The position numbers were made by a program, and so were the translations under genes. DNA of 42,145 nt from Escherichia phage vB_EcoS-Ro145c2YLVW, in sequence record NC_073322.1, one strand, 5' to 3'. A model generated the notes under the pieces. That model did no database searches and was not told the DNA's origin. It saw nothing but the letters and a program-made list of their open reading frames with translations. Positions 505 to 41,490 of the stretch are shown here, in pieces. Numbering within the stretch: the stretch's first letter is position 1; every line of letters begins with the position of its first letter.

Positions 505-511
505 AATTTAC

Positions 512-540
512 TTGCACACTTGAATAGAATAGGCTACTAT
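512..540 (+). promoter_or_regulatory. sigma70-like promoter, conserved class A cassette (TTGCAC-17 nt-TACTAT)
   Basis: -35 TTGCAC, 17-nt spacer, -10 TACTAT; about 30 nt near-identical to cassettes at 10598-10626(-), 20344-20372(-), 41428-41456(+). Confidence 0.5.
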
Positions 541-570
541 TCATTTACACGAACGAGAGGAGAGACAGAG

Positions 571-10321: not shown

Positions 10322-10348
10322 AAGGCCCCATTATGGGGCCTTAGTTTT
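10322..10348. terminator. bidirectional hairpin terminator
   Basis: AAGGCCCCA-TTA-TGGGGCCTT stem-loop followed by AGTTTT; sits between convergent genes. Confidence 0.6.
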
Positions 10349-10571: not shown

Positions 10572-10597
10572 AAATACCTCCTGTTTAAGTTAACTGA

Positions 10598-10626
10598 ATA
10601 GTACCCTACTATATTGGGGTGTGCAA
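10598..10626 (-). promoter_or_regulatory. sigma70-like promoter, class A cassette
   Basis: Minus strand TTGCAC-17 nt-TACTAT; near-identical to cassettes at 512, 20344, 41428. Confidence 0.5.
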
Positions 10627-16102: not shown

Positions 16103-16515
16103 TGGGCTACTTTGAGGACTTAACCAAAGCGTTTGATGTGCCGTTGGTGGCCTTCGGGACCGCAAACGGCATCAGGGTTGCGCTTGAAAATATCGACGCG
16201 CCGACGTCAACCGATACGCCGTATCTGGCGAGTTACATGTTGCTGGCAGATACGGAACAGGCGGATTTGTTCTTCACCGAGCAACGCTCAGGTGTTTATC
16301 AGGTCAACATTAACTACGCGTCGGTGAAAGGTAGCGCGCCAATCAATAAAATGGCAGACTTACTTAACACGGTGTTTAAAGCAGGTAAGTCATTTTCACG
16401 TAACGACATCTGCGCCGAGGTTCAATCAGTTAGCCTGGGGCCGCTGATTGTAGAAAACGGATGGGCCAAAAGACCATTGTCAATTAACTTTATTGCATTC
16501 ACCAAGAGGCTGTGA
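16099..16515 (+). CDS. tail terminator-like protein (putative)
   Basis: Track ORF, position immediately upstream of major tail protein. Confidence 0.45.
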   Translation: MMGYFEDLTKAFDVPLVAFGTANGIRVALENIDAPTSTDTPYLASYMLLADTEQADLFFTEQRSGVYQVNINYASVKGSAPINKMADLLNTVFKAGKSFSRNDICAEVQSVSLGPLIVENGWAKRPLSINFIAFTKRL

Positions 16516-16517
16516 AT

Positions 16518-17684
16518 ATGGCTACAACTCCTTTTAAGGGCGCGAATACCGCGCAATTCTATGTGGCGGAAGTGACCCCGGGCGTAACACCAAGTAACCC
16601 GGTATGGTCGCCGTTGCGTAGCACTGGCGGCGTTCCTGCCGTAACCCGCGATGCGCTGACTTCCAACGAACTGGACGGCAGCCGTGAAACTACATCCATC
16701 CGCACTGGCAATAAGCAGGTAAGCGGGGAGTATGCCATCGAACTTAGCTCTCGTAGTCAGGATGATTTCCTGGCTGGCGCGATGACTTCTACGTGGCAGG
16801 ATGGGGTAGAGATTACGGGTGCCGAAATTACTGTCGCCCCCGCAGGTAAAACATTCACCCGCGCTGCCGGTAGCTTCATTACTGACGGTGTAGAAGTTGG
16901 TGACCTTATTGCGTTCACCGACTTAACCGGCGACAACGCAAAACCGTTTATCGTGACCGCGGTTTCTGCTCTTGTAGTTACGGGTGCGGGCATTCAGCAC
17001 ACGCTGACAGCAGAGACTGTAACCACCGACGCTAAAACTGGCGATAAACTGGAAACCGGTAACGCATGTAAGACGTTCTCCATCCTGACATGGTTCAAAG
17101 GACAGTGCGGGAACCCTGACGCGTACATGTTGACCAAAGGCGTGGAAATCTCCGGTTTCACCATTGAACAGGCCGTAAACGCGATGGTGACAGGCAGCTT
17201 CCCGTTCATCGGCCTGAGTCAGGAGATTCTTACCACGCCGCCGTCTGGCTCTGATTTCTCTCAGGTGACGTTCACGGACGAGCCGTTCTCTTCTGTAGAT
17301 GTGTCTGTGTTCGACGGTTCTACGCCGTTGCGTTGCGATACTCTCACTATCACCAACGATAACGGTGCTTCCGCGCAGTTCGAACTCGGCAACAGTAGCG
17401 TCGCGTTCGTGGAACGGGGGCGCGCAGCTAACACCTTTTCCATCTCCGGTAAGCTGTACGACATGACGATGATTCAGAAGTTTATCAACGAGCAGCAGGT
17501 AGAGATTAACTCTATTCTGGCGGGGGTAAACGGGGCTATGTCTTTCAGTTTGAAACGTGCGGAACTTACGGCGGTTACGCCTGAGATTGGCGGACCTGAG
17601 TCAATCACCCAGAGCATAGAAGGACAGTCCACAGGCAATCAATATCAATCTTCTATTGTAATACAGCGTATTAGCTACGCGTAA
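16518..17684 (+). CDS. major tail protein (putative)
   Basis: Large Thr/Ser/Gly-rich protein at canonical position; track ORF trimmed to ATG 16518. Confidence 0.6.
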   Translation: MATTPFKGANTAQFYVAEVTPGVTPSNPVWSPLRSTGGVPAVTRDALTSNELDGSRETTSIRTGNKQVSGEYAIELSSRSQDDFLAGAMTSTWQDGVEITGAEITVAPAGKTFTRAAGSFITDGVEVGDLIAFTDLTGDNAKPFIVTAVSALVVTGAGIQHTLTAETVTTDAKTGDKLETGNACKTFSILTWFKGQCGNPDAYMLTKGVEISGFTIEQAVNAMVTGSFPFIGLSQEILTTPPSGSDFSQVTFTDEPFSSVDVSVFDGSTPLRCDTLTITNDNGASAQFELGNSSVAFVERGRAANTFSISGKLYDMTMIQKFINEQQVEINSILAGVNGAMSFSLKRAELTAVTPEIGGPESITQSIEGQSTGNQYQSSIVIQRISYA

Positions 17685-17688
17685 GTAA

Positions 17689-17708
17689 AAGGCCCCGAAA
17701 GGGGCCTT
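17689..17708. terminator. bidirectional hairpin terminator AAGGCCCC-GAAA-GGGGCCTT
   Basis: Perfect 8-bp GC stem with GAAA loop between convergent genes; identical copy at 18218-18237. Confidence 0.6.
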
Positions 17709-17709
17709 A

Positions 17710-18204
17710 CTATTTACCGTGGTTCTCGTGGAACCCCAAATCTCTTTCAGCAACTCTCCTCGCGGCAACTGCATCTAGTATCGTCTTAAAGCACCCGATA
17801 TGTGTTTTTACGTTATTGTTGAATATCTGCGCGTACCACAACCTTTCTTTCGCGTTCCAGTAGACTCCGGTTACTCCTGATTTATTATTACGCTGTTTTG
17901 ACATATTTTTATGGTTTTCCGCATTGGACTTTTTAGCTAAGTTAAGCGGTCTATTGTTTATTCGGTCATGGTCTAGATGGTCTATTTGATCTGACGAGGT
18001 TAGCTTATTGTTAGGATTGTTTAAGTCCCAAGCTATACGGTGCGCCGCATGCCATTTACCCCGGAAAAATATCCTTCTATATCCGTCTCGCTGGACGGTA
18101 CCTGCTTCCTCTCCAGCCTTAGCCCTCCCGGACCGGGTTACTCTGTTAAATATCCTTCCTGAAATTAAGTCGTATATGAAAAATTCATTCCAATCCATAA
18201 TCAT
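17710..18204 (-). CDS. HNH homing endonuclease with AP2-type DNA-binding domain
   Basis: HNH-type motifs (YRRIFFRGKWHAAHRIAW, IDHLDHDRINN) and C-terminal GVTGVYW...W segment. Confidence 0.8.
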   Translation of the reverse strand: MIMDWNEFFIYDLISGRIFNRVTRSGRAKAGEEAGTVQRDGYRRIFFRGKWHAAHRIAWDLNNPNNKLTSSDQIDHLDHDRINNRPLNLAKKSNAENHKNMSKQRNNKSGVTGVYWNAKERLWYAQIFNNNVKTHIGCFKTILDAVAARRVAERDLGFHENHGK

Positions 18205-18217
18205 CTCCTATTGTGAT

Positions 18218-18237
18218 AAGGCCCCGAAAGGGGCCTT
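18218..18237. repeat. second copy of AAGGCCCCGAAAGGGGCCTT hairpin
   Basis: 20/20 nt identical to 17689-17708; followed by T run on plus strand. Confidence 0.6.
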
Positions 18238-18241
18238 TTTC

Positions 18242-18472
18242 TTACTCATCAATATTACTCCTGTACTCCCGTAACTTCTCCAGACTCTCAATTGCTTCCG
18301 CTAAGTCGGTTCCTGTGTCCTTGTGCCCCCGCAAGCCCATACACAATAGCTTCTTCAATGCGTGCTGTAACGCCGGGTCGCGGATGTCGAAGGCACGTAG
18401 CACGTCGTAAACGTCTACTGTCATAGTGCTGCCGTGAGTGTTTGTCATTGTGCGGTTGTATTTTGAAGTCAT
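18242..18472 (-). CDS. hypothetical protein (76 aa)
   Basis: Track ORF between the two HNH genes. Confidence 0.5.
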   Translation of the reverse strand: MTSKYNRTMTNTHGSTMTVDVYDVLRAFDIRDPALQHALKKLLCMGLRGHKDTGTDLAEAIESLEKLREYRSNIDE

Positions 18473-18485
18473 AAATCAATCTCCC

Positions 18486-18956
18486 CTACTCATGGTTTTC
18501 ATGAAAACCGTATTTACTCTCGGCGGCTTTACGCGCGGCAACCGCTACATCAAAATCGTCGTAAAGCCCTAAATGCACTTGTTTGTAGTTAACTTTTATA
18601 AACGCGCGCCACTTACCCGCGGCTTTGTGGAAACTTACACCTGTAGCCCCGGATTTATTTATCTTTCTCATAGTTTTATTTTTACTGTCCCCTGTATTGT
18701 CGGTGGCGCGTAGATTTTCTATTCTATTGTCTAGCCTGTTATGGTTTATGTGGTCTATTTGAGTTTTCCTGTCTAAGTCGCATTTATTATAAAGACACCA
18801 TGCTATGCGGTGGACATACACTGTTTTACCACCCATACCGCAGCACAGATAGCCTCTTACACCAACCGTACCAACCTCAGCACCAGTAGATATCCTGGTA
18901 ACCTGCCCCGTCTCAGGGCAGTATTTAAATTGTTTTGAAACATCAAGATACTTCAT
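18486..18956 (-). CDS. HNH homing endonuclease with AP2-type domain (paralog)
   Basis: VYVHRIAW, IDHINHNRLDN and GATGVSF...W motifs; paralogous to 17710..18204. Confidence 0.8.
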   Translation of the reverse strand: MKYLDVSKQFKYCPETGQVTRISTGAEVGTVGVRGYLCCGMGGKTVYVHRIAWCLYNKCDLDRKTQIDHINHNRLDNRIENLRATDNTGDSKNKTMRKINKSGATGVSFHKAAGKWRAFIKVNYKQVHLGLYDDFDVAVAARKAAESKYGFHENHE

Positions 18957-20083
18957 CTTAGCATCTCCGGTGAGATTGAAAGCCTACCTACTTCCCCGAA
19001 CTCTGAACTATAGGTTATGACATTAGCGGACCTCTTAGACATCCACCCGCCGCGAGAAGCATATGCATCTTTCGCCGCGAGAGTGCGATGTTGTTCCACT
19101 ACCATATTCCTACTTTCTACAATCTTTTGATGGTGGAGATGCCCGACATGTGCGTAACTGTACTCGCTTTCGCCAAATGCTTTTCTGAACTTAGCTATCA
19201 TAATGGGTTCGACCACCTCAAACCGGCATTTATGCCCGTGTGTAAAGAACAGTGTCGTTTTACCGTGTTGCACCATCTTGTAAACATCCGGCGACGTATC
19301 GACGAACACACGCGGCTCATTGTCGTACAGCGTACTGAACATCTCAGCCAACCAAATCATTCCGCTTTCGTCGTGGTTCCCTTGCACGATAAGCAAGCGA
19401 ACATTTTTATGCTTAACCAGCGCCATACCAACAACACGGCGTACCATACGAATCATGTAGCGGACTAGTTTCTGGTAGCGCGTGTCCGCATCAAGAACAT
19501 GACCGCTCGCTGGCGTAACGGCATCCAGACTATCGAAGTGTGCGAAGTCCCCGAGCAGATTAATGACTCCTGTTCCTGCATCTGGCGCTTTCTGGAATGC
19601 CGCATCGAACCATCGGGAGAACAGGTCTTCAGCAATCTTCATATCCCAGTCGTCGCCGCTCTCGTCGGCCCAGGCCAGCATGCCGAGATGGAAATCAGAT
19701 ACCGTGTAAAGATTGAGTAGTTTGTCGTCACGTTTGGCTCGAGTCGCTTTAACAGGCGCAACTGGGGTAATCTCTGACTTCATGCCTTCAACCACGGCTT
19801 TCATCAACTCAACCTGACGTTCGGCATCGGTGTCGGTCTTAACCCATTGCAACTTAGTGTTGCCGAACTCGTCTACCAGTGACGACGTTCCTTTAATCTT
19901 GTAGCCGTCTGGCACAAGGTGACTAACATCACGACCATGACCTACGCCTTTCTTCGCCAGCTTCGCTTTACGGATACGAATAACGCGGTCTGAGATGCCG
20001 TATTTACGGGCAATGTCGATATTCTTCATCCCGACGTTCAATTCTTCCTGTAACTGTTCGTCGGTTATTTTCTTCTGGGCCAT
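18953..20083 (-). CDS. calcineurin-like metallophosphoesterase with N-terminal HTH domain
   Basis: Ordered motifs DFH, GDFAHFD, GNHDE, THGHK, GHLHH match the metallophosphoesterase signature; N-terminal 110 aa has an HTH-like segment. Confidence 0.75.
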   Translation of the reverse strand: MAQKKITDEQLQEELNVGMKNIDIARKYGISDRVIRIRKAKLAKKGVGHGRDVSHLVPDGYKIKGTSSLVDEFGNTKLQWVKTDTDAERQVELMKAVVEGMKSEITPVAPVKATRAKRDDKLLNLYTVSDFHLGMLAWADESGDDWDMKIAEDLFSRWFDAAFQKAPDAGTGVINLLGDFAHFDSLDAVTPASGHVLDADTRYQKLVRYMIRMVRRVVGMALVKHKNVRLLIVQGNHDESGMIWLAEMFSTLYDNEPRVFVDTSPDVYKMVQHGKTTLFFTHGHKCRFEVVEPIMIAKFRKAFGESEYSYAHVGHLHHQKIVESRNMVVEQHRTLAAKDAYASRGGWMSKRSANVITYSSEFGEVGRLSISPEMLR

Positions 20084-20313: not shown

Positions 20314-20343
20314 TTTAAACCCCTTCATTGTTGGTGTAAGTGA

Positions 20344-20372
20344 ATAGTACCCTATTATATTGGGGTGTGCAA
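20344..20372 (-). promoter_or_regulatory. sigma70-like promoter, class A cassette
   Basis: Minus strand TTGCAC-17 nt-TACTAT; 30/32 identical to cassette at 10598-10626. Confidence 0.5.
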
Positions 20373-20480
20373 GTAATGTGATAGAATAATTTTGCGCCTA
20401 GTGTCGCACACGAAAAGCGGGTGGTTCCCGTCTGGCGCATTTATCGATAACCTGTAACCTCTTAACCAAAGGATTAAAGA

Positions 20481-24900: not shown

Positions 24901-25217
24901 TATTACACTACACCCGTAACGAAGACGGTACTTTCGACCGCAAACGGTACAACGTACCGCCGATGGAATACGTCGTTGCTAACATCCCTGACGGGGTGCC
25001 GGTACGTATTTACCGGGGCGAGATTGGCGAGGATACGGAAGTAACGGAAGATTTCGAAGCGCTGAAAGAAGACGACGTATTCCATATTATCGAAGGTGCT
25101 GGTGGCGGTGGCGGTGTTCTCGGAAAACTGCTTGACCCATTGGGTGTGCTTAAGTTTATCACTAAACTGATTTCCCCGTCGCAGACAACGCCTAAAACTA
25201 GTGTAGCTAACCAGTAA
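24891..25217 (+). CDS. tail assembly protein (lambda I-like position)
   Basis: Small protein with poly-Gly linker; C-terminal 17 codons repeated at N-terminus of next gene. Confidence 0.5.
   Translation: MALILHYTRNEDGTFDRKRYNVPPMEYVVANIPDGVPVRIYRGEIGEDTEVTEDFEALKEDDVFHIIEGAGGGGGVLGKLLDPLGVLKFITKLISPSQTTPKTSVANQ
25164..25214 (+). repeat. 51-bp direct repeat, copy 1
   Basis: AAACTGATTTCCCCGTCGCAGACAACGCCTAAAACTAGTGTAGCTAACCAG; 49/51 identical to 25278-25328. Confidence 0.8.
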
Positions 25218-25259
25218 TCCGGAGGGGGTTGTGTAGGGAAAGAGCGTAAACCTTGGGGG

Positions 25260-27560
25260 GTGCCGAAGTATTTCAAAAAACTGATTTCCCCGTCGCAGAA
25301 AACGCCTAAAACTAGTTTAGCTAACCAGCAGGCGGAGTCGCCAAACAACAACCTGACGGACCGAAACAATAAACCTCGCCCGTATGAGCGGTCGTATGAT
25401 ATTTGCGGCAGGGTACAGACTATCCCTAATGACCTCATGACTACCTATAAAATATTCGATGAATCCGGCCGAATTATCGAGTATGGATACTACGACGCCG
25501 GTCGAGGTTACCTGGATATCAAAGCAGAAGACATTACTGACGGCGATACTAAAGTACAGGAGATTACAGGTACATCTGTCGCGGTGTATGCGCCGTTTAC
25601 ATCGCCTAACAATACAAATACTCCTCAGCTTCTGGTGGGGGAACCTATCAATCAGAATCTTTATATAACTATCGCTTCTAATGAAGTAGACGGAGCCGTT
25701 CTTAAAGCCCGTAACGATATAAGGGTTAACCCTAGCGACACGGGCCGTGTGAGATATGACTCTGCTACAAAAATTGGATACCTGTATGATGGCACGGGGG
25801 ATTCTGGCTTCGCGGAAATATTATCTGTTGGCGATACCGCGTCGTTCAATAACTTTGACGTTCCGGACGTAACAAATACCAACGGCAACTTTCGTGTTCT
25901 TTATGTCGATAACTTCGAGCTGCGGGTCGACACCGGCGGCGCGTCTAACTGGGCTGCTTTAGGTTCAACCACCTATTCACTTTCCCCGAGAAGTGACACG
26001 TGGGTGGGCCCTGTGAATACGTATGAAAGAACATTAACCGACTGGACCACCTTAAACCGCCTGGAAGTTGAACGAGTAGTTGCTAACATTGCCGCCGCGA
26101 ATGGCATGTACAAGGACAACGGCAGTAAATTGCGCACCGCTGTAACTGTAGAGCTTCAATATCAGCTACTAGATGAATCCGGGGCACCGTACGGAAGCAT
26201 TTACTCGAAACAGGCCACTATATCCGGGCGGTCCGCAGATTACACCGGGGTCACCATTTACGCCGACCTGCCCGTGCGGTCGAAAGTCAGGGTACGCGCC
26301 CGGCGTGTTACCAACCTGGACCTCGATTTCGAGGGCACCGTGGTAGACGAGGTTTCCTACATCAACCTTTACGGGCAGGTCCGCGACACTACGCCGCATT
26401 ACGGCAACCGTACTACTGTACACTCTGCACGTAAGCCGACGCCGCGGGCCGCAGAGATTAAGCAGCCGCAGCTACGTATGGTCGCGACGGAGATGGTGTA
26501 CAAATACCTCGGCAACGGCGTATTTGACGCGGTTATGACACCTAATACCCAAGCCGTTCAGTCGTTAATACGCCTGGCGCGGGACCCAGTAGTAGGAAAC
26601 CTCAATCTCACCACGGCTAACATGGATAAGTTGTTGGCTACGCAAGCAGAGATTGAAAATTATTTCGGAAATGCTGAGGCTGGGCAGTTCTGCTACACAT
26701 TCGATGATTACAAAACGACTATGCAGGACATCATCAGCACAATAGCTGATGCTATTTTCTGCACGCCATATCGTAAAGGGCAAGACATATTACTGGATTT
26801 CGAGCGCCCTCGTATGGGGCCGGAGATGGTATTCACCCACCGCAGTAAAACAACGGCATCCGAGAGGTGGACTAGGACATTCAACGACGCTCAGGTATAC
26901 GATAGTCTTAAGTTCTCCTACATCGACCCAGATACCAACGTAAAAGAGACTATTAGCATTCCAGCCGAAGGTGGTGTTAATACCGAAACGTATGACTCCA
27001 AGGGTATACGTAATTATCGCCAGGCGTACTGGGCGGCGTACCGCCGCTACCAGAAAAACCTGTTGAAGAAGGTAACGGTATCATTCACGGCGACAGAAGA
27101 AGGGATTTTTGCAATGCCTGGGCGTGCGGTAAGTGTGGTAAAAGGTTCGCGTATGGCTCCACAAGACGGCTATGTAATCGCCGTTAACGGGCTTACGCTT
27201 ACTCTTTCTCGGCCGGTCGCGTTTACTCCTGGGGATGACCACTCACTGATTCTTAAGAAGCGAGACGGGGGAGTTCAAAGTGTTGCCGTTGTGCCTGGAA
27301 GCCACGACCGTGAAGTGGTTATGCTATCCGCGCCGCAGGAGGCAATTTACACGGGGAATAGCGCACTAAAAACTGAGTTTTCATTCGGCAACGAAGCAAG
27401 GCATAATGCTCAGATGATTCTTGTTTCTACAGTTGACCCCGGAGATGACAGAACAGTTAAGATTACCGGGATTAACTATGAAGCAGATTTCTATAAATAC
27501 GACGGCGTCGCGCCTTTCGGTCGCGGTTTCTCCGACGGATTCAGCAACGGTTTTAGTTAA
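25260..27560 (+). CDS. central tail fiber / tail tip protein (J-like, putative)
   Basis: 766-aa protein downstream of tail-tip assembly genes; GTG start after CTTGGGGGG. Confidence 0.65.
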   Translation: MPKYFKKLISPSQKTPKTSLANQQAESPNNNLTDRNNKPRPYERSYDICGRVQTIPNDLMTTYKIFDESGRIIEYGYYDAGRGYLDIKAEDITDGDTKVQEITGTSVAVYAPFTSPNNTNTPQLLVGEPINQNLYITIASNEVDGAVLKARNDIRVNPSDTGRVRYDSATKIGYLYDGTGDSGFAEILSVGDTASFNNFDVPDVTNTNGNFRVLYVDNFELRVDTGGASNWAALGSTTYSLSPRSDTWVGPVNTYERTLTDWTTLNRLEVERVVANIAAANGMYKDNGSKLRTAVTVELQYQLLDESGAPYGSIYSKQATISGRSADYTGVTIYADLPVRSKVRVRARRVTNLDLDFEGTVVDEVSYINLYGQVRDTTPHYGNRTTVHSARKPTPRAAEIKQPQLRMVATEMVYKYLGNGVFDAVMTPNTQAVQSLIRLARDPVVGNLNLTTANMDKLLATQAEIENYFGNAEAGQFCYTFDDYKTTMQDIISTIADAIFCTPYRKGQDILLDFERPRMGPEMVFTHRSKTTASERWTRTFNDAQVYDSLKFSYIDPDTNVKETISIPAEGGVNTETYDSKGIRNYRQAYWAAYRRYQKNLLKKVTVSFTATEEGIFAMPGRAVSVVKGSRMAPQDGYVIAVNGLTLTLSRPVAFTPGDDHSLILKKRDGGVQSVAVVPGSHDREVVMLSAPQEAIYTGNSALKTEFSFGNEARHNAQMILVSTVDPGDDRTVKITGINYEADFYKYDGVAPFGRGFSDGFSNGFS
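25278..25328 (+). repeat. 51-bp direct repeat, copy 2
   Basis: AAACTGATTTCCCCGTCGCAGAAAACGCCTAAAACTAGTTTAGCTAACCAG. Confidence 0.8.
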
Positions 27561-27572
27561 AGAGGACTCTAT

Positions 27573-29663
27573 ATGTCAAGCGGATGCGGTGACGTTTTAA
27601 GCTTGGCGGATTTACAAACCGCCAAGAAACACCAGATTTTTGAAGCCGAGGTTATCACCGGTAAATCCGGCGGTGTTGCTACGGGAGCTGATATCGATTA
27701 CGCGACCAACCCTGTTACCGGCCAGACTCAAAAGACGCTACCCGCCGTGTTGCGTGACGCTGGTTTTTCACCCGTGTCATGGGACTTCGCCACTGGCGGA
27801 ACGTTAACAGTTAGTGACCGCGACAAAGTGGTGTACGACCCTGTAAGTGAAACATGGTACTCATACGCAGGTACACTACCTGTTACAGTCCCCGCTGGTT
27901 TTAACCCTGTTGGTAATGCGGACTGGAAGCCGCAGACAGACCCGGATTTGAGGTCCGATTTAACCGCCCCATCATCGGGTCTTATTGTCGATGCATCCAA
28001 TATTTTCATCAAAGCTAGTTCTCCTGGTACAAAGGATGTTCCGTTAAACACATTTGCGGGCCAGATGGTTAGTTTACTTAATTTCCAGGGAGTGGTAGCC
28101 GATGGTATAACCGATACACGAGCCGGGGTGCAAGCTGCGATAGACGCGTGTGCTCTCGCTGGGGTTACGTTATATATCCCAGACGGTGTGTATGCTTTCG
28201 GAAACTTCTTCACCCAACCTTCTAATTCTAAGCTAGTTTTCGGTGAAAATGCATGGTTTAAACTACTAAATAACACCACCTGGCCTGGGCTTGGCGGTAT
28301 AAGCCACTTCCACAACACCGGAACTAACTACAATGATTTCCTTAATACGGACGGTGAAACTATTAAGTATGTAGAAGCTACCAATGTAGTCACTGTAGGA
28401 ATGAAGCTGGACTGTAACAATATTGAGGGTGAAAACGGCATTTCATCAGCATGGGGTTCTAATATCCGCCATATCCGCCCTATAGTTAAGAATACAGTAC
28501 ACACAAACACCGCTCTAGGCGGTAGGGCGTTTCAGATAGAAGGTGAGCTAAACCAAGATATTGTAGTATCAGATGCCACTATTATTGATTGCTCTATTGG
28601 GTGCAATAGCCAAGGTTTAGCAGGCAGCACAACCGCCAACACCCGCGCAGTAACTTACGACGGTATTTTCATGAAAAATGTTGGAGTACCATTTAACATC
28701 GATGGGCAGGTATCCAACCCCGAAACCGCAGACGGCAGAGTACATTCAGTAACCGCATACAATGTAACATTGCATAATTGTGGCGGGCCGAAAGCACCAT
28801 TTGCATCCCAATTAGACGGCGGCATTATTTGCGGGGATCGTGGGGCTGGTTTAGCAATATACGGTCTTCGTTTGATAAATGAGGATTCTTATGGTGGTAT
28901 AGGCGCGGTGTTTAGAGGGGTTATTTATAACGTAGCTATACACGACGCAGATTTAACAGCCCCTTATATTAGTGCCATTGTCGACCACACTCCGCCGGGG
29001 TTTGGCTCACCATCACTGGCAGCATTAGGCGGTTTTGTGTCGACAAGGAACGTTAAAGTAAACGCGAATATTGACTACATAGCTAATGGGCCTAACAACA
29101 GTATAGGTCCTCACAGCCTTAGATTAGATATAGATATGGCTAAGGCATCTATTACAACATTGTTTGGTTCGAGCATAGCCTCGGACCCTACCACGCTGGC
29201 TATGGTGGAAATATTAGATACCAACACCGGGACAAGTAGTGGGTATCGGTCCTTTGGGGACATATACCGTGAAGGCAACTCCCCATCTGTCTGTATAAAA
29301 CGAAAAGATTCCATCGGGCCTGTAGTCCCGGTTGATGCGTCTGGCGCGAGTCTACCCCTTACCCCTAATGGGGTCCAACGTTTTGTTAGAAATGGAAATA
29401 CCGTCACAATATCTATCGATGTAACTTACCCAACCACAGCGGACTCTCGCCCTGCGACCATATCAGGTATTCCGGTTCCAGGAGTAACAGGAGTAAATTA
29501 TTGCGGCATTGGTACTGTTCTTAACGGTGCTGCTGCTGGTACTATTGCGGTGGTTAAAGGTGGGGAAAATTTTATAAGACTTTTAACTCCAACCGGCTCC
29601 AATACCCTAAACAGTGATTTATCTGGTAAAAATATTTCTATATCACTTACGTATATGTTCTGA
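27573..29663 (+). CDS. tailspike with pectate-lyase-like beta-helix (putative depolymerase)
   Basis: GVVADGITDTRAGVQAAIDACALAGVTLYIPDGVYAF resembles right-handed beta-helix glycanase N-terminal repeats; last plus-strand structural gene. Confidence 0.6.
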   Translation: MSSGCGDVLSLADLQTAKKHQIFEAEVITGKSGGVATGADIDYATNPVTGQTQKTLPAVLRDAGFSPVSWDFATGGTLTVSDRDKVVYDPVSETWYSYAGTLPVTVPAGFNPVGNADWKPQTDPDLRSDLTAPSSGLIVDASNIFIKASSPGTKDVPLNTFAGQMVSLLNFQGVVADGITDTRAGVQAAIDACALAGVTLYIPDGVYAFGNFFTQPSNSKLVFGENAWFKLLNNTTWPGLGGISHFHNTGTNYNDFLNTDGETIKYVEATNVVTVGMKLDCNNIEGENGISSAWGSNIRHIRPIVKNTVHTNTALGGRAFQIEGELNQDIVVSDATIIDCSIGCNSQGLAGSTTANTRAVTYDGIFMKNVGVPFNIDGQVSNPETADGRVHSVTAYNVTLHNCGGPKAPFASQLDGGIICGDRGAGLAIYGLRLINEDSYGGIGAVFRGVIYNVAIHDADLTAPYISAIVDHTPPGFGSPSLAALGGFVSTRNVKVNANIDYIANGPNNSIGPHSLRLDIDMAKASITTLFGSSIASDPTTLAMVEILDTNTGTSSGYRSFGDIYREGNSPSVCIKRKDSIGPVVPVDASGASLPLTPNGVQRFVRNGNTVTISIDVTYPTTADSRPATISGIPVPGVTGVNYCGIGTVLNGAAAGTIAVVKGGENFIRLLTPTGSNTLNSDLSGKNISISLTYMF

Positions 29664-29668
29664 TAACT

Positions 29669-29687
29669 AAGGCCCCAACGGGGCCTT
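29669..29687. terminator. hairpin terminator at convergence of structural and replication modules
   Basis: AAGGCCCC-AAC-GGGGCCTT followed by TTATCT. Confidence 0.6.
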
Positions 29688-32088: not shown

Positions 32089-32120
32089 TTCTCAATTCCT
32101 TATATTGTTGGTGTGTGTGG

Positions 32121-32405
32121 TTAACTATAATAGTTCACTATTAGGTCGTCAACCTCTTCTTTTGTTCCTACTACAAAAACATTTGCGCCACGTTTACGAA
32201 GCCGTTTGTGCTCCCGCAACTGATGGTCCTCCGGTTCCGTGTTTTCATCCTTCTTCACCTCTACAAACCATATCACTCCTCCTGGAAGGGCGACTAACAG
32301 GTCAGGCGCTCCGTTTCTACCCTCGTACGACAGCTTACGAACGAGGCCGCCAATAGCCTCGAATCGGTCTTTTGCGTATTTCTGTATTTTGCCTTCCGGG
32401 GTCAT
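32121..32405 (-). CDS. VRR-NUC domain nuclease
   Basis: PDLLVALPGGVIWFVEVKKD matches PD-(D/E)xK VRR-NUC core; start set to ATG 32405. Confidence 0.6.
   Translation of the reverse strand: MTPEGKIQKYAKDRFEAIGGLVRKLSYEGRNGAPDLLVALPGGVIWFVEVKKDENTEPEDHQLREHKRLRKRGANVFVVGTKEEVDDLIVNYYS
32124..32152 (-). promoter_or_regulatory. sigma70-like promoter, class B (TTGACG-17 nt-TATAGT)
   Basis: Spacer contains AATAGT...CTATTATAGTT core shared with promoters at 35700 and 37970. Confidence 0.45.
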
Positions 32406-34974: not shown

Positions 34975-34997
34975 AAAAAGGCCCAATAAAGGGCCTT
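34975..34997 (-). terminator. intra-operon terminator/attenuator between SSB and polymerase
   Basis: AAGGCCC-TTTATT-GGGCCTT hairpin followed by TTTT on minus strand. Confidence 0.55.
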
Positions 34998-35646: not shown

Positions 35647-35699
35647 TTGATTTCTCGCTTTTAAGTTTACTCCGGGAAGCTGCCCGGCCAGTGATTAGA

Positions 35700-35729
35700 A
35701 CTATAATAGCTAACTATTCAGGTGTCAAC
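35700..35729 (-). promoter_or_regulatory. sigma70-like promoter, class B (TTGACA-18 nt-TATAGT)
   Basis: Consensus -35; conserved AATAGT...CTATTATAGTT spacer core. Confidence 0.5.
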
Positions 35730-35732
35730 ACT

Positions 35733-35888
35733 TTATTTAAACGTTTCTTTTGTCATACGGATAATTTTCGCCGATTCGTCCCTAATTATCATGCTGAATA
35801 CCTGGTATATGACTTTGCTCCTGCCTAGCTTCGCTCCGTTTCGATGCTGTTGTATGTAGCTTTTATGCAATTCTTGAATCGTACTCAT
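35733..35888 (-). CDS. hypothetical small protein (51 aa)
   Basis: ATG overlaps exonuclease stop (ATGA); track ORF 35733..35918 trimmed. Confidence 0.35.
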   Translation of the reverse strand: MSTIQELHKSYIQQHRNGAKLGRSKVIYQVFSMIIRDESAKIIRMTKETFK

Positions 35889-37938: not shown

Positions 37939-37969
37939 TTGTTTCTCTCCTCTCGTTTGGTATGGGCTA

Positions 37970-37999
37970 ACTATAATAGCTGACTATTCATGATGTCAA
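37970..37999 (-). promoter_or_regulatory. sigma70-like promoter, class B (TTGACA-18 nt-TATAGT)
   Basis: Consensus -35, conserved spacer core; divergent from XRE gene. Confidence 0.5.
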
Positions 38000-38063
38000 T
38001 GGGCTTTTCTAAAATAATTAATATGGTACTATTCACATATCAACTGACTAAGGAGTGATTAAC

Positions 38064-41364: not shown

Positions 41365-41427
41365 ACCAAGTAATAAGAATAAAGGCACATCCCTACCTGA
41401 AGAATCACAACGGCAACGAATCTTTGC

Positions 41428-41456
41428 TTGCATACCCCAATATAATAGGCTACTAT
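41428..41456 (+). promoter_or_regulatory. sigma70-like promoter, class A cassette (TTGCAT-17 nt-TACTAT)
   Basis: Near-identical to cassettes at 512, 10598, 20344. Confidence 0.5.
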
Positions 41457-41490
41457 TCACTTATCGAAACGAGACAGAGGGGTGAGGGTT

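What the first reader, a model, noticed from the sequence alone, without database searches (positions are those of the whole stretch)
17689..18237. HNH endonuclease gene precisely flanked by two identical 20-bp hairpins
AAGGCCCCGAAAGGGGCCTT occurs at 17689-17708 and again at 18218-18237, bracketing the HNH gene 17710-18204. Duplicating a terminator-like palindrome on both sides of a free-standing homing endonuclease gene is what insertion into, or copying of, a terminator site would leave behind. It marks the gene as a recently mobile unit and suggests the hairpin may be its target.
Basis: seen in the sequence. Interest (0 to 1): 0.5.

Follow-up and report, generated by a model that had tools for sequence, protein, structure and literature searches.

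The report
HNH gene between duplicated terminator hairpins
A small selfish nuclease gene (an HNH-AP2 homing endonuclease) in coliphage Ro145clw sits where two converging gene blocks normally share one terminator hairpin, so a copy of that hairpin now lies on each side; this is a tidy example of a known kind of mobile gene, not a new system.

Summary
AAGGCCCCGAAAGGGGCCTT occurs exactly twice (17689-17708 and 18218-18237; 0 expected by chance) and brackets a 164-aa minus-strand ORF (17710-18204). The window is Escherichia phage vB_EcoS-Ro145clw (Kagunavirus).

The ORF is an I-HmuI-like HNH nuclease with a C-terminal AP2 DNA-binding domain. In 37 related loci without this gene, a single hairpin lies right after the tail-tube stop. 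That hairpin is the ordinary bidirectional terminator of a convergent gene junction, and empty sites are exactly 529 bp shorter.

Seven carriers were found. Two of them share a 99.6% identical cassette on backbones that are only 74-82% identical, so the unit moves horizontally. One copy is frameshifted.

The "identical hairpins" hold in only 2 of 7 carriers. The left copy always belongs to one allele (GGAAAA flank, GAAA loop) and travels with the gene. The right copy resembles the resident allele of recipient genomes and usually has the flipped TTTC loop.

Orthologs (64-75% aa identity) in more distant phages sit at the same site with one hairpin. An unrelated anti-repressor gene is bracketed in the same way, and the same stems occur at two other terminators in this genome.

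So donor-plus-resident terminator copies fit better than a target-site duplication, and "hairpin = target" remains untested. Modest interest.

The parts
17689..17708 (.). Left hairpin copy (8-bp stem AAGGCCCC/GGGGCCTT, loop GAAA). It is the terminator for the tail-tube gene (+) and for the HNH gene (-). It is the allele that travels with the HNH gene.
   Evidence: Exact match. The RNA stem-loop forms on both strands. On the minus strand the GC stem is followed by TTTTACTT. All 7 carriers have the identical left copy and flank G[G/T]AAAA. Orthologs in distant relatives keep this hairpin next to the HNH stop codon.
17710..18204 (-). Free-standing HNH-AP2 homing endonuclease gene (164 aa).
   Evidence: ORF. 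Pfam HNH_3 above cut-off. PHROG 99 'HNH endonuclease', E = 1.7e-49. AlphaFold2 pLDDT 83.6. Foldseek top hit is I-HmuI 1u3e (E = 5.7e-4), and the C-terminal domain matches the TEM1 AP2 domain at rmsd 1.1 A. Differing codons are 15 synonymous to 3 non-synonymous against KMB36. One carrier (L019) is frameshifted.
18205..18217 (-). 13-nt leader with the RBS (AGGAG) between the right hairpin and the HNH start codon. It leaves no room for a promoter.
   Evidence: Sequence. No promoter-like site on the minus strand between 18204 and 18472.
18218..18237 (.). Right hairpin copy. It is a strong terminator on the + strand (tail TTTTTCTT) and a weak one on the - strand (tail TTATCACA). It is probably the resident terminator of the recipient genome, and it marks the right-hand recombination boundary of the cassette.
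   Evidence: (the only copy and strand that passes the terminator scan). The loop is GAAA in 2 of 7 carriers and TTTC in 5 of 7. The flanking sequence to its right differs between carriers (normal p76, a divergent p76, or a 58-aa ORF).
17612..17684 (+). Last ~75 nt of the tail-tube gene. This haplotype block is co-inherited with the cassette.
   Evidence: 0-2 differences among the five carriers compared (window, KMB36, 536P11, L010, L019), while the rest of the gene is 82-96% identical. It is shared by a few non-carriers (Sciku, Shashou, Snoke, XY2, L020).
16512..17684 (+). Tail tube protein gene (left neighbour, convergent with the HNH gene).
   Evidence: Pfam Phage_tube_2, E = 2.8e-37. Relatives annotate it the same way.
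18242..18472 (-). 76-aa ORF (JK_43P-like, unknown function). It is the right neighbour, and its stop codon abuts the right hairpin's T-tract.
   Evidence: phrog_2452.
18486..18956 (-). Second, paralogous HNH_3 + AP2 endonuclease gene in the same minus-strand operon. It has no flanking hairpins and is itself present or absent among relatives.
   Evidence: Pfam. Present in AV104, absent in Bas71, and replaced by a small ORF in KMB36 and fFiEco03. 39% identical to the first HNH.
18953..20083 (-). Metallophosphoesterase gene, an upstream member of the minus-strand operon that feeds transcription towards the HNH gene.
   Evidence: Pfam Metallophos_2 and Metallophos, both below Pfam's cut-offs. Relatives annotate it as phosphoesterase or DNA repair exonuclease.
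20354..20382 (-). Promoter-like site (ATCACA-17-TATAAT) at the head of the minus-strand operon, inside a ~40-nt element repeated elsewhere in the genome.
   Evidence: 10 of 12 matches. Repeat families I1, I2, I3 and D11. Its promoter function is inferred.

Best explanation
The 529-bp unit is a free-standing homing-endonuclease cassette: an I-HmuI-like HNH nuclease fused to an AP2 DNA-binding domain. It is lodged at the bidirectional intrinsic terminator that separates the tail-tube gene (+) from a small minus-strand operon.

Shown:
- A single GC hairpin is the ancestral state of this junction.
- The gene is present in only a minority of Kagunavirus genomes.
- It is under purifying selection, it decays in one carrier, and it has been transferred between diverged backbones.
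- Orthologs occupy the same junction in more distant phages, with only the tube-side hairpin.

Inferred:
- The tube 3' end, left hairpin and HNH gene form the unit that moves.
- It enters a new genome by double-strand-break repair or recombination. The left crossover lies in the homologous tail-tube gene, so the last ~75 nt are co-converted. The right join lies at or just in front of the recipient's own terminator hairpin.
- The result is two copies of the terminator: the donor allele on the left and the resident allele on the right.
- Afterwards the right hairpin is the only right-hand homology that all recipients share, so it marks the edge of the exchanged block.
- Functionally, each convergent transcription unit keeps its strong U-tract. 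The minus-strand operon meets a hairpin with a poor U-tract 13 nt before the HNH RBS. The nuclease is therefore probably expressed only by read-through, at a low level.
- The nuclease's recognition site is predicted to lie in the H2-type tube-end/terminator junction of empty genomes. The hairpin stems alone cannot be sufficient.
For: Identity and reality of the repeat.

Single hairpin in non-carriers: 37 non-carrier Kagunavirus-type junctions have one hairpin, and more distant relatives have a different GC hairpin at the same place. Empty sites are 529 bp shorter (spans of ~1432 against 1961). Terminators are annotated on both strands at the homologous hairpin in phage Sciku.

Protein family.

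Rarity: 3 of 50,697 GenBank phage records carry it at >95% identity, and all other hits are <60%.

Horizontal transfer: the cassette is 99.6% identical between KMB36 and 536P11, against 82.4% (tube) and 74.0% (p76) for the backbone. The synonymous to non-synonymous ratio is 15:3. L019 is frameshifted.

The block travels into three different right-flank contexts, including a 58-aa ORF in L082.

Left copy and flank: 7 of 7 carriers have the H1 allele, against 4 of 37 non-carriers. The right copy has the H2-like TAAGG flank, and its loops (5 TTTC: 2 GAAA) mirror the loop frequencies at H2 empty sites (20 TTTC: 8 GAAA).

Orthologs of 64-75% identity sit at the same junction. Their start codon overlaps the upstream gene and there is no second hairpin.

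U-tract asymmetry and the missing promoter.

Precedents from T4-type phages, all from PMC2988022: HEGs between terminators (segD), a stable hairpin just upstream of the RBS (seg43(25)), a weak terminator limiting mobE transcripts, and co-conversion of flanks.
Against: - No cleavage, transcription or mobility was measured. Everything about mechanism is comparative inference.
- The H1 left haplotype is not exclusive to carriers (Sciku, Shashou, Snoke, XY2, L020, JSSK01). It could simply be a segregating allele on which the insertion happened once.
- The window and KMB36 have two identical copies, and XY2 is an H1 empty site with loop GAAA. This is exactly what a 20-bp target-site duplication of an XY2-like site would give. 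Loop state changes faster than the cassette diverges, so the direction of change cannot be fixed.
- These phages are mosaic everywhere, so block boundaries may partly reflect general recombination.
- Carrier loci are few (7) and not phylogenetically independent.
Confidence: 0.65

Rival explanations
1. True target-site duplication. The HNH nuclease, or a structure-specific nuclease acting on the extruded cruciform, makes staggered nicks on either side of the terminator palindrome. The gene is inserted, and fill-in duplicates the whole 20-bp hairpin. The hairpin is the target.
For: - The window and KMB36 have two identical direct copies.
- The outer A-tract stays with the left copy and the outer T-tract with the right copy, as expected if only the stem-loop core were duplicated.
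- XY2 and L020 are empty sites with exactly the outer flanks and GAAA loop needed as a substrate.
- A second, unrelated cargo (the Ant gene in L027 and JSSK01) is also bracketed by two hairpin copies. In L027 the left copy is extended to a perfect 16-bp-arm palindrome, as fold-back priming at a hairpin end would give.
- AP2 domains are reported to favour GC-rich DNA (PMC10448857).
- My own recollection, not checked here: T4 endonuclease VII, a His-Me finger enzyme, cuts cruciforms.
Against: - 5 of 7 carriers have non-identical copies (loop flipped), and the right copy's inner flank is H2-like while the left is H1.
- Orthologs at the same site have only one hairpin and overlap their upstream gene.
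- Paralogs elsewhere have no hairpins.
- The same stems at 10323 and 29668 in the carrier's own genome would be self-targets.
- Homing endonucleases are not known to create target-site duplications (general knowledge; the DSB-repair pathway is described in PMC2988022).
Confidence: 0.15
2. Nuclease-independent cassette shuffling. The terminator hairpins act as short portable homology, like the PeSL terminator/promoter motifs of T4-type phages. Ordinary recombination between them inserts, swaps and deletes whatever gene lies between, and the HNH gene is merely one cargo.
For: - Four different cargos occupy this one junction: this HNH, a 210-aa plus-strand HNH of another family (phrog_953), an Ant anti-repressor gene, and a 57-aa ORF.
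- Two of them (this HNH and Ant) are bracketed by two hairpins.
- The right edge of the shared HNH block falls in the hairpin in every carrier, including one with a different right neighbour.
- XY2 and L020 have the junction expected from deletion between the two copies.
- Similar stems occur at other terminators in the genome.
- PeSL precedent: PMC2839356 and PMC4122927.
Against: - 20 bp, interrupted by a flippable loop, is very short for homologous recombination.
- Two of the four cargos (the 57-aa ORF and the plus-strand HNH) show no duplication.
- HNH orthologs are faithful to this one junction across diverged phage lineages. That suggests site-specific homing rather than random shuffling among the genome's several similar terminators.
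- No promoter is part of the repeat, unlike PeSLs.
Confidence: 0.2
3. No mobility is relevant to the window's copy. The cassette is an old, vertically inherited resident, and the second hairpin arose by local duplication and is kept as a regulatory attenuator or insulator.
For: - The window's cassette is the most diverged of the seven (16-27 differences), about as diverged as its backbone (93% tube, ~90% p76).
- The hairpin position just upstream of the RBS has a precedent in seg43(25).
Against: - The near-identical cassette in KMB36 and 536P11 lies on 74-82% identical backbones.
- The carriers' patchy distribution: 3 GenBank records out of the ~57 closest rows.
- Three different right-flank contexts.
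Confidence: 0.05

Closest known systems
Free-standing HNH homing endonuclease genes of T4-type phages (mobE, the mob genes) and seg genes such as segD and seg43(25)
   Same: A small nuclease gene lies in an intergenic position between conserved genes. It is present or absent among close relatives, flanking markers are co-converted, and expression depends on read-through from upstream promoters and is limited by terminators or hairpins. segD lies between intrinsic terminators. seg43(25) has a very stable hairpin just upstream of its RBS that does not sequester it. A weak terminator stops ~30% of mobE transcripts (PMC2988022).
   Different: - A different phage group (Kagunavirus siphovirus).
- The two flanking hairpins are copies of one and the same bidirectional terminator.
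- No cleavage site has been mapped.
- The DNA-binding domain is AP2.
HNH-AP2 homing endonucleases ('HNN-AP2' of Xanthomonas phages; 'IPA-HNH' HEGs of ICP1-like phages; Magnani et al. 2004 family)
   Same: N-terminal HNH_3-type His-Me finger plus a C-terminal AP2 domain. Several paralogs per genome and degenerating copies, as in PMC2248197 and PMC10448857. They sit at boundaries of genetic exchange (PMC10448857).
   Different: In the Xanthomonas phages no conserved flanking sequence was found and the genomic locations varied. Here the orthologous lineage is faithful to one junction and is bracketed by a repeated terminator.
I-HmuI (Bacillus phage SPO1 intron-encoded HNH nicking endonuclease, PDB 1u3e)
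   Same: Best structural match of the predicted model (Foldseek E = 5.7e-4, probability 1.0).
   Different: 18% identity and TM about 0.4. I-HmuI is intron-encoded and has a different C-terminal DNA-binding module. Nicking versus double-strand cutting by the Ro145clw protein is unknown.
PeSL cassettes (promoter-early stem-loop motifs) of T4-type phages
   Same: Repeated terminator stem-loops flank accessory genes and serve as points of exchange, insertion and deletion between otherwise unrelated sequences (PMC2839356, PMC4122927).
   Different: PeSLs are composite promoter-plus-terminator motifs that occur many times in hyperplastic regions. Here the repeat is a bare 20-bp terminator hairpin without a promoter, present as two copies at one junction.
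Morons of lambdoid phages (my own knowledge; Juhala/Hendrix concept, not checked here)
   Same: An extra gene is inserted between two genes of a conserved backbone and is delimited by transcription signals. The Ant cassette in L027 and JSSK01, with a candidate promoter that I read by eye (TTGAAC-17-TTAAAT) and terminators on both sides, fits this best.
   Different: The HNH cassette has no room for its own promoter, and its cargo is a selfish nuclease rather than a host-benefit gene.

Membership tests
HNH (His-Me finger) homing endonuclease, HNH_3 / HNH-AP2 type | HNH / beta-beta-alpha-metal catalytic motif | tested here: met
   Pfam HNH_3 scores 26.5 bits against a cut-off of 24.8. PHROG 99, E = 1.7e-49. 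D75, H76, N84, N88 and N100 are invariant in the alignment of 14 homologs. The predicted fold's best match is I-HmuI 1u3e.
HNH (His-Me finger) homing endonuclease, HNH_3 / HNH-AP2 type | C-terminal AP2-type DNA-binding domain | tested here: met
   Predicted three-stranded sheet plus helix at residues 114-156. It superposes on the Arabidopsis TEM1 AP2 domain at rmsd 1.0-1.4 A over 49 columns, probability 1.0. A weak sequence match to an apicomplexan AP2 protein, E = 0.041. The Pfam AP2 model itself was not reached for this protein; only the paralog at 18486-18956 matched, E = 0.0011 and below cut-off.
HNH (His-Me finger) homing endonuclease, HNH_3 / HNH-AP2 type | Presence/absence polymorphism at a fixed genomic site among close relatives | tested here: met
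   7 carriers against 37 non-carrier junctions. The empty site is exactly 529 bp shorter. Orthologs sit at the same junction in more distant phages.
HNH (His-Me finger) homing endonuclease, HNH_3 / HNH-AP2 type | Horizontal spread with co-conversion of flanking sequence | tested here: inconclusive
   The horizontal transfer signal is clear: 99.6% cassette identity against 74-82% for the backbone. The last ~75 nt of the tube gene are co-inherited in the five carriers compared. However, that haplotype also occurs in some non-carriers, and the genomes are mosaic in general.
HNH (His-Me finger) homing endonuclease, HNH_3 / HNH-AP2 type | Site-specific cleavage or nicking of the HEG-less allele | not testable with these tools
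   This needs purified protein or phage crosses.
Rho-independent (intrinsic) bidirectional terminator | GC-rich stem, short loop, U-tract on the transcribed strand | tested here: met
   8-bp stem with 6 GC pairs and a 4-nt loop. The stem-loop is the core of the minimum-energy fold on both strands. The right copy on the + strand passes the scan (TTTTTCTT). The left copy on the - strand has TTTTACTT after the GC stem. The right copy on the - strand has only TTATCACA, which is weak. Depositors annotated terminators on both strands at the homologous site in Sciku. Termination itself was not measured.
Transposon-style target-site duplication | Two copies generated from one target, hence identical at birth and flanking only the inserted DNA | tested here: not met
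   The copies are identical in 2 of 7 carriers only. Left and right copies resemble two different alleles (H1 and H2) of the native terminator. Orthologs have the gene with one hairpin. Later replacement of the right loop by recombination cannot be fully excluded.
PeSL-type mobile regulatory cassette | Composite early promoter plus stem-loop terminator repeated around accessory ORFs | tested here: not met
   There is no promoter-like site next to either hairpin, and only 13 nt separate the right hairpin from the ATG. The resemblance is limited to repeated terminators acting as exchange points.

The most novel reading that the evidence does not exclude
The HNH-AP2 nuclease recognises the GC-rich terminator palindrome together with its tube-side flank, possibly as an extruded cruciform. 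Its breaks turn this terminator into a landing pad. Repair either copies in the HNH cassette or captures unrelated DNA (the Ant gene, a second HNH family, small ORFs), and each event can leave a copy of the hairpin on both sides. Terminator hairpins would then act as generic, nuclease-driven insertion sites for accessory genes in siphovirus structural operons.
Probability: 0.12. Interest if true: 0.6.

Novelty: new member of a known kind. Interest (0 to 1): 0.3.

Why it matters
This is a clean natural example of how a selfish nuclease gene settles into a compact phage genome without breaking transcription. Each of the two converging transcription units keeps its own strong U-tract, and the nuclease sits behind a leaky hairpin.

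It also marks the tail-tube/terminator junction of Kagunavirus as a hot spot that has accepted at least four different cargos. That is useful for anyone annotating or engineering these therapeutic-candidate phages. In GenBank record MG852086.2 the ORF is still labelled 'hypothetical protein'.

The H1 and H2 alleles give a directly testable prediction for the enzyme's target and its immune variant. None of this changes current understanding of homing endonucleases.

Tried and rejected
- Left-flank haplotype as a carrier-specific co-conversion tract: rejected as exclusive evidence. Sciku, Shashou, Snoke, XY2, L020 and JSSK01 share it without the gene.
- The rise in identity at 17412-17611 between the window and 536P11 first looked like a long co-conversion tract. 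Binned comparison with 24 loci showed that this stretch is conserved in all relatives. Only the last ~75-130 nt are informative.
- Hairpin bracketing as a trait of this HNH family: rejected. Four paralogs (~46% identity) in HSE2, PhiSTP1, BEK12B and KE16 are embedded in operons with no flanking stem-loops.
- The extended pairing around the left hairpin (-30.6 kcal/mol, z = -6.3), and the resemblance of the HNH 3' end to the tube 3' end, were considered as a fold-back synthesis footprint. I judged them explainable by stop codons plus A/T tracts and the conserved ...HENHGK C-terminus. Left open.
- A recurring 'CGATAA' immediately left of the right or native hairpin occurs in three cargo types. 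It might be a relic of a duplicated tube stop region or of an earlier cargo. It also occurs at the unrelated terminator at 29662, so it was not pursued.
The window's exact protein is not on record. Magnani et al. 2004 is not held. The metagenome scan added only one new carrier.
- A terminal repeat of the window, to explain 42145 bases against the 42031-bp record: none found.
Full report
**What is there.** The 20-mer AAGGCCCCGAAAGGGGCCTT occurs exactly twice in the window, at 17689-17708 and 18218-18237. No further copy appears even with three mismatches, and none appears in 100 shuffles. Both copies carry the loop GAAA, so they form a direct repeat with a period of 529 bp. Between them lies a 164-aa ORF on the minus strand (17710..18204). 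Its stop codon is 1 nt from the left hairpin. Its ATG is 13 nt from the right hairpin, and that leader holds the RBS AGGAG. The left neighbour is the tail-tube gene (16512..17684, +; Phage_tube_2). The right neighbour is a 76-aa ORF (18242..18472, -). Further upstream on the minus strand lie a second HNH gene (18486..18956) and a metallophosphoesterase gene (18953..20083). The window is Escherichia phage vB_EcoS-Ro145clw (MG852086.2, genus Kagunavirus, 100% identity). In that record the ORF is labelled a hypothetical protein.

**What the gene is.** Pfam HNH_3 is just above its cut-off, and PHROG 99 'HNH endonuclease' matches at E = 1.7e-49. In an alignment of 14 homologs the catalytic-motif residues D75, H76, N84, N88 and N100 are invariant. 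An AlphaFold2 model (pLDDT 83.6) is best matched by the HNH homing endonuclease I-HmuI (1u3e, E = 5.7e-4). Its C-terminal sheet-plus-helix superposes on plant AP2 domains at about 1.1 A rmsd. It is therefore an HNH-AP2 homing-type endonuclease, a family already described in phages (PMC2248197; PMC10448857).

**What the hairpin is.** In every relative that lacks this gene, one GC hairpin follows the tail-tube stop codon. This holds for 37 Kagunavirus-type junctions from GenBank and IMG/VR, and more distant relatives have a different GC hairpin at the same place. It lies between convergent genes, with an A-tract on one side and a T-tract on the other. In phage Sciku the depositors annotated it as a terminator on both strands. 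It is the ordinary bidirectional terminator of this junction. The same stems, with other loops, also close two other convergent junctions in the window, at 10323-10340 and 29668-29687.

**Presence and absence.** Among the 57 best GenBank rows, which include some RefSeq duplicates, the distance from the tube start to the 76-aa gene falls into classes:
- about 1432 bp: empty site, 22 rows
- about 1560-1605 bp: a 57-aa minus-strand ORF to the right of the hairpin, 20 rows
- 1901-1961 bp: this HNH, 3 rows
- about 2163 bp: a 210-aa plus-strand ORF to the left of the hairpin, 11 rows. This ORF is an HNH of another family (phrog_953, E = 1e-68).
- 2223 bp: JSSK01, 1 row

The empty class is exactly 529 bp shorter than the window. 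Only three of 50,697 phage records encode this HNH at more than 95% identity, and all other hits are below 60%. IMG/VR, Logan and ENA assemblies add four more carriers. The protein's 90% cluster has 98 members, some of them seen on 35-45 contigs of about 44 kb.

**Mobility.** KMB36 and 536P11 differ at 2 of 533 cassette positions (99.6%). Their tail-tube genes are 82.4% identical and their 76-aa genes 74.0% identical (profile). In L082 the same two-hairpin cassette abuts a 58-aa ORF instead of the 76-aa gene. Differing codons between intact copies are mostly synonymous (15:3, 17:3, 11:2). One carrier, L019, has a 2-bp insertion that truncates the protein to 143 aa. This is the pattern of an active, horizontally spreading element that occasionally decays. 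The window's own copy is the most diverged of the seven (16-27 differences), so 'recent' does not apply to it specifically.

**The two copies are not equivalent.** All seven carriers have the same left copy with the same outer flank (...TACGCGTAA-G[G/T]AAAA-GGCCCCGAAAGGGGCC). I call this allele H1. In the five carriers compared, the last ~75 nt of the tube gene show 0-2 differences, while the rest of the gene is only 82-96% identical. Among 37 non-carriers, only 4 have H1. The other 33 have H2 (...TACGCATAA-AACTAA-GGCCCC...), with loop TTTC in 20, GAAA in 8 and other loops in 5. The right copy in carriers has the H2-like inner flank (TAAGGCCCC). Its loop is TTTC in five carriers and GAAA in two, the window and KMB36. 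In L010 it also has a stem mismatch. Sequence to the right of the right hairpin is not shared among carriers. The co-inherited block therefore runs from about 17612 to the left arm of the right hairpin.

**Orthologs.** Proteins 64-75% identical (P0002, P0005, P0009) are encoded in three more distant phage lineages at the same place. The order there is tail-tube stop, one GGCCCCTTTCGGGGCC hairpin, then the HNH stop codon within a few nucleotides. In these lineages the HNH start codon overlaps the upstream gene (a 75-aa ORF, a 59-aa ORF or the phosphoesterase), so there is no second hairpin. The linkage of tube end, hairpin and HNH is therefore old, and the right hairpin is special to the Kagunavirus carriers.

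**Most likely history (inference).** The unit made of the tube 3' end, the H1 hairpin and the HNH gene entered an H2-type Kagunavirus by break repair or recombination. The left crossover lay in the homologous tube gene. The right join lay just in front of the recipient's own terminator, which was retained. Once formed, the right hairpin supplies the only right-hand homology common to all recipients. That explains why the shared block always ends there and why the right loop follows the recipient population.

A strict 20-bp target-site duplication of an XY2-like H1 empty site would also produce the window's structure. XY2 has exactly the required flanks and the GAAA loop. I cannot exclude this model, but it explains the H2-like right copies and the single-hairpin orthologs less well. 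XY2 and L020 could equally be products of deletion between the two copies.

**Function of the arrangement (inference).** After the insertion each strand meets a weaker and then a stronger terminator. Counting from the end of the GC stem, the tails are as follows:

| Strand | First hairpin met | Second hairpin met |
|---|---|---|
| Plus (tail tube) | left copy, TTACTATT | right copy, TTTTTCTT (the only site passing the scan) |
| Minus (small operon) | right copy, TTATCACA | left copy, TTTTACTT |

There is no promoter-like site and no room for one between the 76-aa gene and the HNH gene. The HNH gene is therefore probably transcribed by read-through from the operon promoter near 20354-20382. That site lies in an element repeated several times in the genome. 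The right hairpin would attenuate this transcription. Comparable devices are known for T4-type HEGs (PMC2988022):
- segD lies between terminators.
- seg43(25) has a stable hairpin just upstream of its RBS.
- A weak terminator stops about 30% of mobE transcripts.

**Is the hairpin the target?** This is untested. Three points favour it:
- AP2 domains are reported to prefer GC-rich DNA (PMC10448857).
- The orthologous lineage is always next to this hairpin type.
- The block boundaries place any break close to the junction.

Three points count against the hairpin alone being the target:
- The same stems occur at two other terminators of the carrier genome.
- Paralogous HNH genes elsewhere have no hairpins.
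- A non-nuclease cargo is bracketed by two hairpin copies in L027 and JSSK01, on two different left haplotypes. It is an Ant-type anti-repressor with Rha and KilAC domains (phrog_63).

The prediction I would test is that the enzyme cuts the H2 tube-end/terminator junction and that H1 is the immune allele.

**Comparison and novelty.** This is a new member of a known kind: a free-standing HNH-AP2 homing endonuclease. Its slightly unusual setting is a duplicated bidirectional terminator at a junction that is a hot spot for at least four cargos. The closest described analogue for terminator repeats acting as exchange points is the PeSL system of T4-type phages (PMC2839356, PMC4122927). It differs in that here the repeat contains no promoter. 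Interest is modest.

Noticed in passing
window 18486-18956 (-): A second HNH_3 + AP2-like endonuclease gene, 39% identical to the first, lies two genes upstream in the same operon. Its stop is 13 nt from the 76-aa gene's start, it overlaps the phosphoesterase gene, and it has no hairpins. It is itself variable: present in AV104, absent in Bas71, and replaced by a ~66-aa ORF in KMB36 and fFiEco03.
   Followed up: partly
L027 3101-3926; L075 (JSSK01) 1474-2292: At the same junction, an Ant-type anti-repressor gene (Rha + KilAC, 223-238 aa, minus strand) is also bracketed by two hairpin copies. The right copy is preceded by an A8-9 run, which makes a strong minus-strand terminator. By eye I read a candidate promoter there (TTGAAC-17-TTAAAT). 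In L027 the left hairpin is extended to a perfect 16-bp-arm palindrome (AAAACTAAGGCCCC GAAA GGGGCCTTAGTTTT).
   Followed up: partly
L004 1774-2541; L011: A 210-aa plus-strand ORF inserted between the tube stop and the (single) hairpin is an HNH endonuclease of a different family (phrog_953, E = 1e-68; no Pfam hit). Its last codons plus stop (..CGATAAAACTAAGG) mimic the tube gene's end (..GCATAAAACTAAGG).
   Followed up: partly
hairpin loop across ~45 loci: The 4-nt loop of the native terminator is polymorphic. It mostly appears as the two reverse-complement forms TTTC and GAAA, with GGAA/TTCC, GTTT/AAAC and AAAA also seen. This suggests frequent loop inversion or exchange within a perfect palindromic stem.
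   Followed up: partly
window 10323-10340, 29668-29687, 34980-34995: Other convergent-junction terminators use the same or nearly the same stems (AAGGCCCC/GGGGCCTT) and even similar flanks (GATAACTAAGG..., ...CCTTAGTTTTAA). The genome's terminators therefore form a small sequence family.
   Followed up: partly
window 508-554, 10591-10626, 20330-20376, 38019-38039, 41424-41463: A ~40-50-nt element (TTGCA[CT]ACCCCAATATAATAGG[GC]TACTATTCA...) recurs in both orientations at the heads of gene blocks. It contains a TATAAT-like hexamer and is probably a conserved phage promoter.
   Followed up: no
window 32119-32162, 35695-35738, 37965-37988: Another repeated motif (AACTATAATAG[CT]T.ACTATT) occurs three times on the same strand. 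It is probably a second promoter class.
   Followed up: no
window 25106-25328: Two adjacent ~109-nt direct repeats (79% identical, spacing 114 nt). They are probably an internal duplication within a coding sequence. Not examined.
   Followed up: no
L003/L008 (KMB36) 1799-2338; protein P0001: Gene callers extend the HNH ORF to 179 aa in some carriers by reading through the right hairpin from an ATG inside the 76-aa gene's last codons. In the window this extension is closed by a TAG, so 164 aa (or 162 from the second Met) is the likely product.
   Followed up: yes
window 17673-17724: In the + strand transcript the left hairpin can extend into a long imperfect stem that pairs the tube gene's last codons with the antisense of the HNH gene's last codons (-30.6 kcal/mol, z = -6.3). 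Its significance is unknown.
   Followed up: no
window length versus GenBank record: The window (42145 bases) is 114 bases longer than MG852086.2 (42031) and is rotated by 11929 bases relative to it. No terminal repeat of the window explains the difference.
   Followed up: partly
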